Assembly: GCF_009914755.1 (NCBI RefSeq)
Contig: NC_060928.1
Length of the DNA stretch: 64,000 nucleotides
Direction: 5' to 3' (one strand)
Source: the human T2T-CHM13v2.0 reference genome, Homo sapiens
The first letter of the stretch is position 1; every line of letters starts with the position of its first letter. The notes beneath the pieces are model-generated. The model was not told the DNA's origin and searched no databases. It saw only the letters and a program-made list of their open reading frames with translations. Of this stretch, positions 27,519 through 35,768 are shown piece by piece. The position numbers and the translations under genes are program-made.

Positions 27519-28484
27519 TGTGAAAATAAGAAAATCAAAATCTAAGCTGTTGGAACTCTAAAATATTTTGAGCCCTAAGGGACTGTGATTATGGAACCCA
27601 AGTCATGTAAACAGGCAGCTATAACCTAGACAGCTGTAATCTTTGTTTCTCTAATTACAGATTAGCTTTTTTCCTTACCTACATTGTTGTATAAAATGTC
27701 ATGACTAAAGGGTGCCAGTCATAAATGACCGAAGGGCGTAAAATGTTGTAGATGATTAAAGGGTCCCCTTCCCTCTTAAATGTTGATCTTCTTTAAAGAT
27801 TAACTTCTCTCTTTCCTCTCTCACACCAAGATTTCATGACTATCACATTGTTTAGGATGAAATGTTAAATCCCTCTTTAAATTAGAAAGAAAATTAAAAT
27901 AAGCTGTACAGAAAAGAAAACAAACTGTAGCTAATTAACTTGTTGTAAGTCAAAAACTAGTCTTGTATAGAAAATGTTATAATCCTTCTAAATTTCTTTG
28001 TGTTCTGCCTATATAAGCAAGGTCTTAACTTTTTTTTTTTTTTTTTTTTTTTTTTTGAGACAGAGTCTTGCTCTGTTGACCAAGCTGGAATGCAGTGGTT
28101 CAATCTTGGCTCACTGCAACCTCCGCCTCCTGGGTTCAGGCGATTCTCCTGCCTCAGCCTCCCGAGTAGCTGGGACTACAGGCATGCACCACCACACCCA
28201 GCTAATTTTTTTTTTTTTTTGTATTTTTAGTAGAGATGGGGTTTCACCATGTTGGTCAGGCTGGTTTCGAACTCCTGACCTGAAATGATCTGTCTGCCTC
28301 GGCCTCCCAAAGTTCTGGGATTACAGGTATGAGCCACCATGCCCAGCTGGTCTTAATTTTTAACTTTGGAGTACTAACTCCATTTCTCTGCAATTCGTCT
28401 TTCCTGGATGGCCATTCCCATCTTTTTGCCTGAATAAATGTTTTAAAACTGGATTCTGACTCTTTCAATTATTTCTGGTTGAAG
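27519..28484 (+). mobile_element. 5' LTR (contains an Alu)
   Basis: Homologous to 34367-35768; TATA-like cctatataag ~28007 and aataaa ~28433. Confidence 0.9.
28031..28348 (-). mobile_element. AluS (Sx/Sz-like) inserted in the 5' LTR
   Basis: Alu dimer, long T tail, TSD ggtcttaa(c/t)ttt at 28021 and 28349. Confidence 0.95.
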
Positions 28485-28488
28485 AAAA

Positions 28489-28506
28489 TGGTGACTCAGA
28501 TGGCAT
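28489..28506 (+). promoter_or_regulatory. Primer binding site, tRNA-Arg-like
   Basis: TGGTGACTCAGATGGCAT just after the LTR; 14/18 match to TGGCGACCCAGATGGGAC, the complement of the recalled tRNA-Arg(CCG) 3' end. Confidence 0.65.
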
Positions 28507-29366
28507 CCAAAGTAGGCCCTTTCCTTTGACTCCTGTTGCTTCGTTAATCAGCACCTGGTACCTGCAGAACTGTTTCTGTCCAACTGTCTTTCACCAGAGT
28601 TTATGGGAGCTCTTGGTGGAGCCCCTCTCTGGTTTTTAATGTCCCTGGCTTAGGTGAGATCCAGACTTCATTCAAGCAACCTGATTCTATGCTCAACAGG
28701 GCTGGAATTGAAGCTCTACTGCTTTAAGAAAGGAATTTTGTTTGTTATTTCTCTGGAGATGCTGCTGTTAGCAGGTTTGTGGTTTCAGTTTTCTTTGAGG
28801 TTAAGATTTTGTTCACTTTACTTGCTAAAATTTGCAACATTTTCTTTCTTTCAAAACCTGGTTAAAGATAAAGCTGTTTCTCTTTAGTAGGAGGGAATAA
28901 ATGTCTCTGGCATAAGCAAGAATGAAAGTTTCAAACTAGCCAGGTTTTGAAGCTTGGTTCAACTTGGCATATTTAAATTCTTCTTTTGAGTGACTGAAAA
29001 TCTATTTAAAAAAAAAACCTTTATGAGAATGTGATAAGTGCCAAAGATGAAAGGACAGTGATTCTCCTGGGCAGAAAACACCTTAGGTGACTAAGGTCTT
29101 GTGAGAGTGTCAGAGTTTATAGCTCCTGACAAGCATTGGTCCCCTAGGGAATCCCCGAAGAAGGACATATAGGAAGATACTCCACAAAAAGGGCTAATCT
29201 CCCAGTGCTTTTAGTGCCCAGAATTCCTGGGTTTCAACACAACATATAGGAGGGGAGAATCAACCCAAGGGTGACACTTTGGAGAGCTATTCCCAAAAGC
29301 GGTACATTTAATGCAAAATATCTTTCCCTTTCAGCTTTGTGGTCACTTAAAAAGAGAATACAAATT

Positions 29367-32640: not shown

Positions 32641-32749
32641 TTAAGATAAGTGACACTGGGACTAGATAAAGATATCAGAGGTGATTAGAAAGCTGACATC
32701 AGGGTCAGCTTTCCCAAGGCCCTGAATTAGACCTGTATTTAAAAGAATG

Positions 32750-34145
32750 CTTAATGGTATCAATTGATAATAGATGGGAAAGGTTCTCTTTTACAAGCTC
32801 CCGCTAAACTTCTTTCTTTTCATCCTAGTTGTTATGTCTTGGTACTACCATCACTAGCTGTTTTCCATAAAGCAAACCTCTTTTGTAGTGGGTTCAAGAC
32901 TATACTAGTAGATTACAAAAGGATGCTTGGTGGGTCTGCAGCCTCATGCCCCTGTCCAGTAATTCTGGCCTTCTATGGTAGGTATCTCCTTTCCAAGGAT
33001 GAGATTGGATAGAATATCAGAAATATATTTGTGTTTCTCAAAAAGTCATTGGTGCTTAACACTAGTATGGCTAAAGATAATGTACATCACAGGCCTATAA
33101 ATAATACAGAATAAAGTGCATGGGAAGAGTTTCTCAGTAGAAGATATAGTTTATTAGCTTTAACACTGATGCTTCCCCAGTTGAGAAATAAGATAACTCA
33201 ATGTCAAGATGGTATAACACAAATTTGGGATGTTTTTATCTGGCTTACCCTCTCCTTTGGTCAGCATAAGTCAACTAACCTCTTAATGTTGGGAAAAAAG
33301 AAATCATACCAAAGATACCTGGTCCAATTGCACCAGAGATATAGATCCCCAAAACATGGTGTATCCACACCATTATATTACAAAGTACTGATTGACATGC
33401 CACTGAAAGGACACAATGACTATTTACTGATTAGTTCCAAGTGAAACATCTTGGCTGTGTGGCAGTAACCTATGGCCAAGATTACTCTCAGATGGTTTAG
33501 AGGATGTTCCTTGGGTTATGCTTGGGCACAAAGTTGACATACACTATAAAAACTTGCAAATTTTCCTCATTTACAATCTTGTTGGGTTCATTCTGTGTTC
33601 CATTGCTATGATTTTTAGCTTCCATTTTTGTACCACAACTGGATTTTGATTATGTCATTTGGCATGGAGAGGTCTTAACCAATTATACACAAAACCCTAA
33701 ATGATGGGCACATGGGTATTTCATTATTAAACAGGGAAGTTATTCTTATGAGAAAGGCTGTATTACAGAACTGTATGGCTTTAGACATAGTCACTGCAGC
33801 CCAAGAGGGAACTTGCCTTATCATAAAAACTGAACTTTATGTCTATATCCCAGATAAATCAAATAATACCACTAAATTAATGACTGGTATGAAAACCCAA
33901 ATAACCAAACTTTCATACCTAAAATCTTCTCTAAACACTCCCTAGGTCGCTAAATTGGATCCTAAGGAAATTGGTGGCAAAATCTGTTACTTATTCTAGG
34001 AATTATAATTGCATGTTGTGTTTTGGCCTGTTTGTGTCAACACTGTTGTTACAGCATTTGTTTACAATGGAACCAATGCATGACTGAAAAGACTAAAATA
34101 ATGGTTTCCCAAAGAATTGCATTCATTGAATATATAGCTGTTTAG
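32750..34145 (+). pseudogene. env: ERV env remnant (gamma-type TM)
   Basis: ORF 33712..33945 contains the ISD LQNCMALDIVTAAQEGTC and a degenerate CX6CC (CLIIKTELYVYIPD); hydrophobic anchor LLLILGIIIACCVLACLC at ~33985-34040. Confidence 0.85.
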
Positions 34146-34366
34146 CCTCACTCAGGCCACAGAGTTACTTCCTTCATGTTGCTTTAAATTCAGCCTAAAG
34201 TCCATCAGCTTCATATCTTGTCCAGTCATCTCTTGCCATGGGACATGATATCCTAGCAATGAGGCTTCCTAGTAAAGTGAGACTCAAATTCTGAACATAA
34301 AAGAAGTCAAACCATTGAATTCATCTACGATAGTCTCTTCAAAAGATCTTGATGAATGGGAAAAAC

Positions 34367-35768
34367 TGTGAAAATAAGTAATTTGAACATCAAAACTGTT
34401 GGAACTTTAAAATATTTTGAGCCTTAAGGGAATGTGATTATGGGACCTGGGTCATGTAAACTGGCAGCTGTAACCGAGACAGTGACAGTCTTTATTTTTC
34501 TGATTACAGATTAGCCTTCTTCCTTACCTACATTATTGTGTAAATGTCATAAATGACTAAAGGGTACCAGGGAAGACCACTTCCCTCTTAAATGTCAATC
34601 TTTATTATAGATCAGCTACTCTTTCCTCTCTCACACAAAGACTTCATGACTATCACATTGTTTAGGATGGAATGTTAAATACACTCTTAAATTAGAAAGA
34701 AAAAGAAAACAAGCTGTAAAAAAAGGAGAGAAAATAAACTGGACAGAAAAGAAAACAAACTTTAATTATATTGTTGTTAGTCATCGACCAGCCTCGTATA
34801 AACTATGTTATATCCTTCTAAGTGTCTTTGTTTTCTGCCTACAGTAGTAAGAACTTAACTTTTTATTATTATTATTATTATTATACTTCAAGTTTTAGGG
34901 TACATGTGCACAACGTATAGGTTTGTTACATATGTATACATGTGCCATGTTGGTGTGCTGCACCCATTAACTTGTCATTTAGCATTAGATATATCTCCTA
35001 ATGCTATCCCTCCCCCCTCCCACCACCCCACAGCAGTCCCTGGTGTGTGATGTTCCCCTTCTTGTGTCCATGTGTTCTCATTGTTCAATTCCCACCTATG
35101 AGTGAGAACATGTGGTGTTTGGTTTTTTGTCCTTGCGATAGTTTGCTGAGGATGATAGTTTCCGGCTTCATCCATGTCCCCATAAAGGACATGAACTCAT
35201 CATTTTTTATGGCTGCATAGTATTCCATGGTGTATATGTGCCACATTTTCTTAATCCTGTCTATCATTGTTGGACATTTGGCTTGGTTCCAAGTCTTTGC
35301 TATTGTGAATAGTGCTGCAATAAACATATGTGTGCATGTGTCTTTATAGCAGCATGATTTATAATCCTTTGGGTATATACCCAGTAATGGGATGGATGGG
35401 TAAAATGGTATTTCTAGTTCTAGATCCCTGAGGAATTGTCACACTGACTTCCACAATGGTTGAACTAGTTTACAGTCCCACCAACAGTGTAAAAGTGTTC
35501 CTATTTCTCCACATCCTCTCCAGCACCTGTTGTTTCCTGACTTTTTAATGATCACCATTCTAACTGGTGTGAGATGGTATCTCATTGTGGTTTTGATTTG
35601 CATTTCTCTGATGGCCAGTGATGATGAGCAGAACTTAACTTTTTAACTTTGGAGCACTGACCCCATTTCTGTGGAGTCCATGCTTCCCAAATCGCTATTC
35701 CCAGCTTTTCGCTTGAATTAAATTCTTTAAAACTAGATTCCGATCCTTTCGATGATTTCAGGTTGACA
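34367..35768 (+). mobile_element. 3' LTR (contains an L1PA fragment), preceded by a degenerate PPT
   Basis: tgtgaaaataag...ggttgaca; gaatgggaaaaa lies just upstream. Confidence 0.9.
34865..35629 (-). mobile_element. 5'-truncated L1PA3-like (~0.77 kb) inserted in the 3' LTR
   Basis: ORF2 C-terminus (..FSLIGGN) and 3' UTR, (TTA)n tail; perfect 16-bp repeat agaacttaacttttta at 34850-34865 and 35630-35645. Confidence 0.96.

What the first reader, a model, noticed from the sequence alone, without database searches (positions are those of the whole stretch)
28021..35645. Independent Alu and L1 insertions at the same site in both LTRs of one provirus
Seen: the 5' LTR has an AluS and the 3' LTR has an L1PA3-like fragment, both on the minus strand. 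Each is inserted at the homologous cttaa(c)TTTTT/AActttggag site just downstream of the LTR TATA region, with its own TSD (ggtcttaa(c/t)ttt at 28021/28349; agaacttaacttttta at 34850/35630). Established: 5'-TTTT/AA is the preferred L1 endonuclease nick site. Inference: two TPRT events of different age hitting the same position suggest a strong sequence or structure hotspot in this LTR family, relevant to retroposon homoplasy.
Basis: partly seen in the sequence, partly recalled or inferred. Interest (0 to 1): 0.7.

Follow-up and report, generated by a model that had tools for sequence, protein, structure and literature searches.

The report
Shared L1 nick site in LTRs
Two different jumping elements, an Alu and an L1 fragment, landed separately at the same position in the two end-repeats of an old viral remnant, likely because that position matches the L1 enzyme's preferred cut site and is reused in about 8 in 100 copies of this repeat family, which is an ordinary example of an already described kind of insertion hotspot.

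Summary
Observation confirmed. A decayed class I provirus (27519-35768) has a full-length Alu in its 5' LTR and a 765-bp 5'-truncated L1 in its 3' LTR, both antisense, both at the same TTTTT/AA nick 20-odd bases after the TATA box. Each target-site duplication carries its own LTR's private bases, so the events are independent and later than LTR divergence (K2P 0.21). But the site is not unique: a site after the poly(A) signal is filled in 5 of 78, and in one same-copy sample of 54 the counts are 4, 3, 2, 2. Overall insertion density in the LTR is near that of flanks; no hairpin or TATA dependence was found. A double hit is then expected about 0.06-0.2 times at this site for 10-30 two-LTR proviruses. 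Position-specific hotspots inside older repeats are published genome-wide (PMC2836564). This is not homoplasy in the phylogenetic sense. Residual puzzle: an equally canonical site 175 bp upstream seems colder (borderline).

The parts
27515..27518 (+). Left 4-bp target duplication of the provirus (GAGT; right copy AAGT)
   Evidence: ERV1 elements have 4-bp duplications (PMC2836564, passages read)
27519..28484 (+). 5' LTR, interrupted by the Alu; 3' terminal CA decayed
28010..28016 (+). TATA box (TATATAA) of the 5' LTR; its counterpart in the 3' LTR (34840-34847) is decayed
   Evidence: sequence; promoter role inferred
28021..28033 (+). Left copy of the Alu target-site duplication (its T-run merges with the Alu tail)
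28030..28348 (-). Full-length Alu, antisense to the LTR, with 27-nt poly(A); AluS-like (subfamily recalled, untested)
28349..28363 (+). Right copy of the Alu duplication and the TTTTT/AA site; inferred first nick 28361|28362 on the + strand
28433..28438 (+). AATAAA poly(A) signal of the 5' LTR; the second family hotspot (P-) lies just after it, empty here
   Evidence: family counts
28489..28506 (+). Decayed primer-binding site, His-like (inferred; a short deletion against the His-type motifs listed in PMC4724089)
   Evidence: passages
28485..34366 (+). Internal region of a decayed class I ERV: broken frames throughout; RNase H remnant 30924-31112, integrase core remnant 31515-31682, env transmembrane remnant 33679-33942
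   Evidence: Pfam E 0.0036 and 0.00078, both under the curated cut-offs; Syncytin-1 E 0.00066
32302..32597 (+). Third insertion: sense Alu in the internal region, 13-nt duplication AGTTGAACCTACT (32288-32300 / 32597-32609)
34354..34366 (+). Decayed polypurine tract before the 3' LTR
   Evidence: role inferred from position
34367..35768 (+). 3' LTR (TG...CA), interrupted by the L1 fragment
34850..34864 (+). Left copy of the L1 target-site duplication
34865..35629 (-). 5'-truncated L1 (ORF2 3' end, 3' UTR, (AAT)n tail), antisense to the LTR, 1-nt microhomology at its 5' junction
35630..35646 (+). Right copy of the L1 duplication and the TTTTT/AA site; inferred first nick 35644|35645 on the + strand
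35769..35772 (+). Right 4-bp target duplication of the provirus (AAGT)

Best explanation
An Alu and an L1 fragment were inserted independently at the homologous TTTTT/AA site of the two LTRs of one old provirus, likely because L1 ORF2p nicks this canonical site and primes reverse transcription on its T-run, as it has in about 8 in 100 other copies of the family. Shown: same nick column, tails, duplications with LTR-private bases, recurrence in nine other copies with different elements and duplication lengths. Inferred: ORF2p nicked the + strand between the T-run and AA, the poly(A) of the Alu or L1 RNA paired with the freed T-rich end (which forces the antisense orientation), and the second strand was cut 12-17 bases upstream, varying between events. 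Inferred: because the same 630-bp AT-rich sequence exists in a few hundred copies and offers only four or five good sites, an ordinary insertion load (about 0.35 per copy) piles up on them; this site takes about a fifth. The hit in both LTRs of one provirus is then a coincidence of modest odds, possibly helped by both LTRs carrying five Ts (the optimal TTTTT/AA) where most copies have four.
For: Same column. Private bases GGTC versus AGAAC on both sides of each insertion. 8 of 99 other listed matches of a left anchor are followed by a T-run; all 8 were read in their flanks: 6 Alus with duplications ending at the site, 1 Alu whose right junction is lost (L036), 1 unique 46-bp insert with an 11-nt duplication (L064); L009 is a ninth. 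The Alus differ by K2P 0.15-0.44 and in duplication start (-9 to -14 from the anchor end), so they are separate events. Other sites: 1 of 99 (T), 1 of 99 (S), 1 of 99 clear (G); pooled Fisher p=0.001. Flank baseline 6 near-full Alus at perfect hexamers against 651 empty ones, about 1-2%, 4% on a generous assumption; P(8 or more of 99)=0.0009 at 2%, 0.045 at 4%. Expected double hits 0.06-0.19 at this site, 0.12-0.37 at any of three hot sites, for an assumed 10-30 two-LTR proviruses. Consensus and priming: PMC12809410, PMC2836564 (passages).
Against: The plain hexamer does not explain why site T, also TTTT/AA on the same strand in about 55 of 100 rows, is filled in 1 (4 of 43 vs 1 of 56, p=0.16; 6 of 45 vs 1 of 56, p=0.043; perfect-site rows counted by eye). 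Two of the eight filled copies have imperfect sites (TTCT/CC in L034, TTT/CA in L064). The double hit is still a roughly 1-in-5 to 1-in-15 event for this site and family. The five-T reading is equally parsimonious with a four-T site plus a later C>T change. [quoted passage not shown]
Confidence: 0.8

Rival explanations
1. The site has an extra property beyond the endonuclease consensus: it lies between TATA box and predicted start site, and the other hot site lies just after AATAAA, so promoter-linked accessibility, local DNA shape (the site is a head-to-tail TTAACTT repeat) or preferential retention of promoter-breaking insertions raises occupancy.
For: H 8 of 99 and P- 5 of 78 against T, S, G at about 1 of 99 each; imperfect variants of H are also hit.
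Against: No TATA dependence seen: the 3' LTR here, L009, L035 and L062 have decayed TATA boxes today yet are filled; 6 of the 8 filled rows have an intact TATATAA, not clearly different from the unfilled rows (by eye). No consistent hairpin (z +0.59, -2.41, +0.33 in three copies, and the one significant fold leaves the nick unpaired). Same-copy counts in 54 copies are H 4, P- 3, T 2, P+ 2. Several sites were compared, so p about 0.04 is weak.
Confidence: 0.13
2. No hotspot at all: two chance uses of one ordinary TTTT/AA hexamer.
For: If the true baseline per perfect hexamer is 4%, 4 of 43 perfect-site copies is not significant (p=0.09). Local TSD calling is crude (18 of 62 near-full Alus gave no TSD, and a few LTR-internal Alus were misfiled as flank).
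Against: Occupancy differs among six sites (chi-square p=0.018, small counts); nine other independent hits at one position.
Confidence: 0.06
3. One insertion was copied or converted between the LTRs, or came in with the virus, and one element later replaced the other.
For: Same position, same orientation, near-equal duplication length (14 versus 14-15).
Against: The two elements share no sequence beyond the tail; each duplication carries the private bases of its own LTR on both sides; LTR divergence is 0.21 on both sides of the site or higher, with no converted tract.
Confidence: 0.01

Closest known systems
Position-specific hotspots of nested insertion (Levy, Schwartz and Ast 2010, PMC2836564; read: parts 1, 3, 4 of 8 and passages)
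   Same: Alu and other elements pile up at single positions of older repeats; 82% (654 of 799) of their clustered insertion types deviate from background; 14,583 Alu-into-ERV1 events were tabulated; first nick TTTT/AA, second nick 15-16 bp away.
   Different: Here two different elements hit the two LTRs of one provirus. 'MER34' does not occur in their main text; their supplementary spreadsheet, which may list this very position, could not be read.
L1 ORF2p target-primed reverse transcription at 5'-TTTTT/AA (PMC12809410; passages read)
   Same: Nick motif, poly(A) priming, orientation, 12-17 nt duplications, 5' truncation with microhomology.
   Different: None in mechanism; only the rank order among equally canonical sites is left unexplained.
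Precise parallel insertions / retroposon homoplasy (Doronina and colleagues, PMC10531181; abstract and passages read)
   Same: Independent insertions with a duplication shift of 0-1 nt at one site; attributed there in part to the TT/AAAA preference.
   Different: Those are orthologous sites in different lineages; different element types are classed as non-homoplasious. Here the sites are paralogous and the elements differ, so no false phylogenetic signal arises.
MER34-type ERV1 (HEPSI supergroup; PMC4724089 and PMC5753468, passages read)
   Same: Class I env remnant, 4-bp duplication, LTR divergence within the 13-31% given for the supergroup.
   Different: The name MER34 for this LTR is my recall of its sequence and comes from no call; the subfamily was not determined.

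Membership tests
L1-machinery (TPRT) insertion | 3' poly(A) or A-rich tail | tested here: met
   27-nt T-run 28030-28056; (AAT)n tail at 34865
L1-machinery (TPRT) insertion | Variable target-site duplication of about 7-20 nt | tested here: met
   13-14 nt with one change; 15 nt exact
L1-machinery (TPRT) insertion | Nick at 5'-TTTT/AA on the priming strand | tested here: met
   TTTTT/AA at 28357-28363 and 35640-35646
Nested-insertion hotspot (Levy 2010) | Independent insertions recur at one position of the target family above background | tested here: met
   8 of 99 vs 3 of 297 at three other sites, p=0.001
Nested-insertion hotspot (Levy 2010) | Excess over other equally canonical endonuclease sites | tested here: inconclusive
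   vs T p=0.16 to 0.043; vs P- p=0.78; vs P+ p=0.25
Nested-insertion hotspot (Levy 2010) | This position is listed in the published dataset | not testable with these tools
   supplementary xls too large to read
True retroposon homoplasy | Same element type at an orthologous site in separate lineages | tested here: not met
   Alu versus L1, paralogous LTRs in one genome
Class I ERV provirus | Two colinear LTRs, PBS, pol and env remnants, PPT, 4-bp duplication | tested here: met
   protein matches are weak (under Pfam cut-offs)
MER34 LTR family | Best match to the Dfam/Repbase MER34 models | not testable with these tools
   no repeat library held; name recalled
AluS and L1PA3 subfamilies | Diagnostic positions against subfamily models | not testable with these tools
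   no library; the Alu groups by distance (0.17-0.21) with five others and apart from two older ones (0.26, 0.38)

The most novel reading that the evidence does not exclude
The TATA-proximal site and the site after AATAAA are several-fold hotter than an equally canonical TTTT/AA site in the same LTR, so something beyond the nick motif (flanking DNA shape, promoter or poly(A)-site accessibility in the germ line, or retention of insertions that disable the LTR) sets where L1 machinery inserts; a few hundred paralogous copies would be a ready-made natural experiment to map that rule.
Probability: 0.13. Interest if true: 0.5.

Novelty: new member of a known kind. Interest (0 to 1): 0.22.

Why it matters
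As it stands it is a tidy teaching example: two different elements, one site, one provirus, with the order of events readable from the duplications. It gives a rough ceiling for reuse of a good site over primate history (about 8%, 95% interval 3.6-15%), which bears on how often presence/absence markers inside repeats can be hit twice. It would matter more only if the gap between equally canonical sites holds in a full tally, since what ranks L1 target sites beyond the motif is still open.

Tried and rejected
Rfam over 27000-37000: no match. Hairpin at the site: not consistent. TATA dependence: none seen (rows). Jurka-type second-nick motif as the discriminator: H offers TCTT at 15 nt and T offers ATTT/AA at 14 nt on the element strand, so it does not separate them (sequence). 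'AACTT upstream context' as the discriminator: sites S and G share it and are cold. Amplification of one filled ancestor or segmental duplication: rejected by Alu distances and differing duplications. The second Alu in L021 sits in the first Alu's tail and was not counted as a second hit. L005 has an unrelated LTR-like insert about 20 bp upstream and was not counted. Source of the 46-bp insert in L064: no second genomic copy within 3 mismatches, no Rfam family. Pfam found nothing in 12 of 14 fragments. Literature: eight searches answered; none listed a report of this locus or of a MER34 hotspot; only listings and abstracts were seen for papers not named as read. The Cell 2019 de novo L1 insertion paper was not held.
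Full report
1. The observation. Window 27519-35768 is a decayed class I provirus on the + strand: two LTRs, a decayed PBS and PPT, a 4-bp flanking duplication GAGT/AAGT, weak RNase H and integrase matches (E 0.0036, 0.00078; 2 of 14 fragments matched, both under the Pfam cut-offs) and an env transmembrane remnant (Syncytin-1, E 0.00066). All frames are broken. LTR-LTR distance is K2P 0.21 over 467 columns on the left piece and 0.33 over 136 on the right; the two left pieces are sisters among 34 (94/79). 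I recall the LTR as MER34-type; no call tested that. The 5' LTR holds a full-length antisense Alu (28030-28348), the 3' LTR an antisense 5'-truncated L1 (34865-35629; 104 of 117 residues identical to human ORF2p 1159-1275). Both right junctions read TTTTT/AACTTTGGAG and align in one column. Duplications are 13-14 nt and 15 nt (14 if the first A is L1 microhomology).

2. Independence. Both copies of the Alu duplication start GGTC, both copies of the L1 duplication start AGAAC, while most family copies read AGACC there. Each duplication was therefore made from its own LTR after the LTRs had diverged. This excludes copying between LTRs and inheritance from the viral RNA.

3. Family test. A DNA search of the genome with the left piece of the 3' LTR (40 of 235 candidates scored, 30 loci fetched) gave 29 other loci; in 26 the site could be read (L019, L024, L030 lacked it) and 3 were filled (L007, L009, L021). 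A 24-letter anchor ending just before the nick gave 105 matches, 0 in the reversed control, 100 listed. Leaving out the window's own row, 8 of 99 continue in a T-run; at least two rows are chance non-LTR matches (L082, L086) and stay in the denominator. All 8 were read in flanks: six Alus with duplications, one Alu with a lost right junction, one unique 46-bp insert. Flanks were held for 62 of the 100 rows; the other 38 were scored from the 11 printed bases only, and none showed a T-run. With L009 that makes nine other filled copies. The seven other Alus measured and the window's Alu differ by K2P 0.15-0.44, and duplication starts vary from -9 to -14 while the tail end is fixed, as TPRT predicts.

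4. Control sites, same method. T (TTTT/AA, same strand, about 175 bp upstream): 1 of 99 (117 matches, 8 in control; the list includes four near-identical chromosome 1 copies). S (near the 5' end): 1 of 99. G: 1 of 99 clear, one more doubtful. P+ (opposite strand, before the 3' end): 3-4 of 100. P- (just after AATAAA): 5 of 78. The P+ and P- denominators include two and one window rows. Most filled control rows rest on the printed run alone. H against T, S or G singly p=0.035, pooled p=0.001; against P+ 0.25; against P- 0.78. Against my reading of H as the top site: held loci contain filled copies that the anchors missed (L055 at T, L079 at P-, L003 and L049 at P+). In the first 57 rows, all held, minus the window row and two non-LTR rows (54 copies), I count by eye about 19 L1-machinery insertions inside the LTR: H 4, P- 3, T 2, P+ 2, and about eight singles. 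That is one per about 1.7 kb of LTR, against 105 Alu pieces per 257 kb of flank, one per 2.4 kb. The LTR is thus not much more targeted than its surroundings; the load is concentrated on its few good sites.

5. Baseline and odds. In 77 independent stretches (326 kb) there were 651 empty perfect hexamers away from Alus and LTRs and 6 near-full Alus called at perfect sites, among 44 with a duplication out of 62 (crude, some LTR-internal Alus misfiled). That is about 1%, 2% when scaled to all Alu pieces, and I also tested 4%. P(8 or more of 99) is 0.0009 at 2% and 0.045 at 4%; counting perfect-site copies only (4 of 43, by eye) 0.011 and 0.09. With occupancy 0.08 the expected number of double hits at H is 0.06 for 10 and 0.19 for 30 two-LTR proviruses, about twice that for any of three hot sites; the number of such proviruses is assumed, with about five candidate pairs visible in the lists. 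Over all ERV families such cases are expected (inference).

6. Mechanism. Established (PMC12809410, PMC2836564, passages): ORF2p nicks 5'-TTTTT/AA, the T-rich end pairs with the RNA poly(A), and a second nick 15-16 bp away makes the duplication. All features here fit, including the forced antisense orientation. Both right junctions in this provirus show five Ts, against four in 37 of 39 perfect empty rows (by eye); if the provirus integrated with five, both LTRs offered the optimal motif, but a four-T site with a later C>T change in the 5' LTR is equally parsimonious. No hairpin covers the nick; TATA integrity does not track occupancy; neither the second-nick motif nor the AACTT context separates hot from cold sites. 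Why T seems colder than H (1 of 56 against 4 of 43 or 6 of 45; p 0.16 or 0.043) is unexplained and may be noise.

7. Relation to what is known. Position-specific hotspots inside older repeats were described genome-wide in PMC2836564 (parts 1, 3, 4 of 8 and passages read; 14,583 Alu-into-ERV1 events). MER34 is not in its main text, and its supplementary spreadsheet could not be read, so this position may already be listed. Precise parallel insertions are documented between species (PMC10531181, abstract and passages); insertions of different types are classed there as non-homoplasious, which is the nearest label for this case. Eight answered searches listed no report of this locus. Verdict: real, a new member of a known kind, interest 0.22.

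Noticed in passing
L064:1525-1570 (G000:C2:26799160 region): A unique 46-bp A-tailed insert with an 11-nt duplication sits at the same LTR site; no second genomic copy and no Rfam match. Likely a very short retrocopy of an unidentified RNA. The same LTR also has an Alu at site G.
   Followed up: partly
L021:820-1540: Two Alus in series at the site: the second inserted into the tail of the first.
   Followed up: yes
window 32288-32609 and about 45593-45935: Two Alus 13 kb apart have duplications that both begin (A)AGTTGAACC; several LTR sites also give duplications beginning AAGTT on the element strand. Probably chance.
   Followed up: no
L034 (G000:C5:31713690): A related LTR subfamily with a different 3' end and a TTCT/CC variant of the site also has an Alu at the homologous position.
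   Followed up: partly
L080, L025, L079, L003, L049: A cluster of three nick positions on both strands within about 25 bp after the AATAAA signal holds six insertions in 54 copies, more than site H; L080 has two Alus there.
   Followed up: partly
L005:1970-2675 and L049 about -606..-254 from the anchor: LTR-like elements of other families are nested in two copies (one just upstream of the TATA box); not L1-type insertions.
   Followed up: no
window 27690-27770 and 34710-34760: Each LTR has its own short tandem duplication (about 34 and 25 nt), arisen after integration.
   Followed up: no
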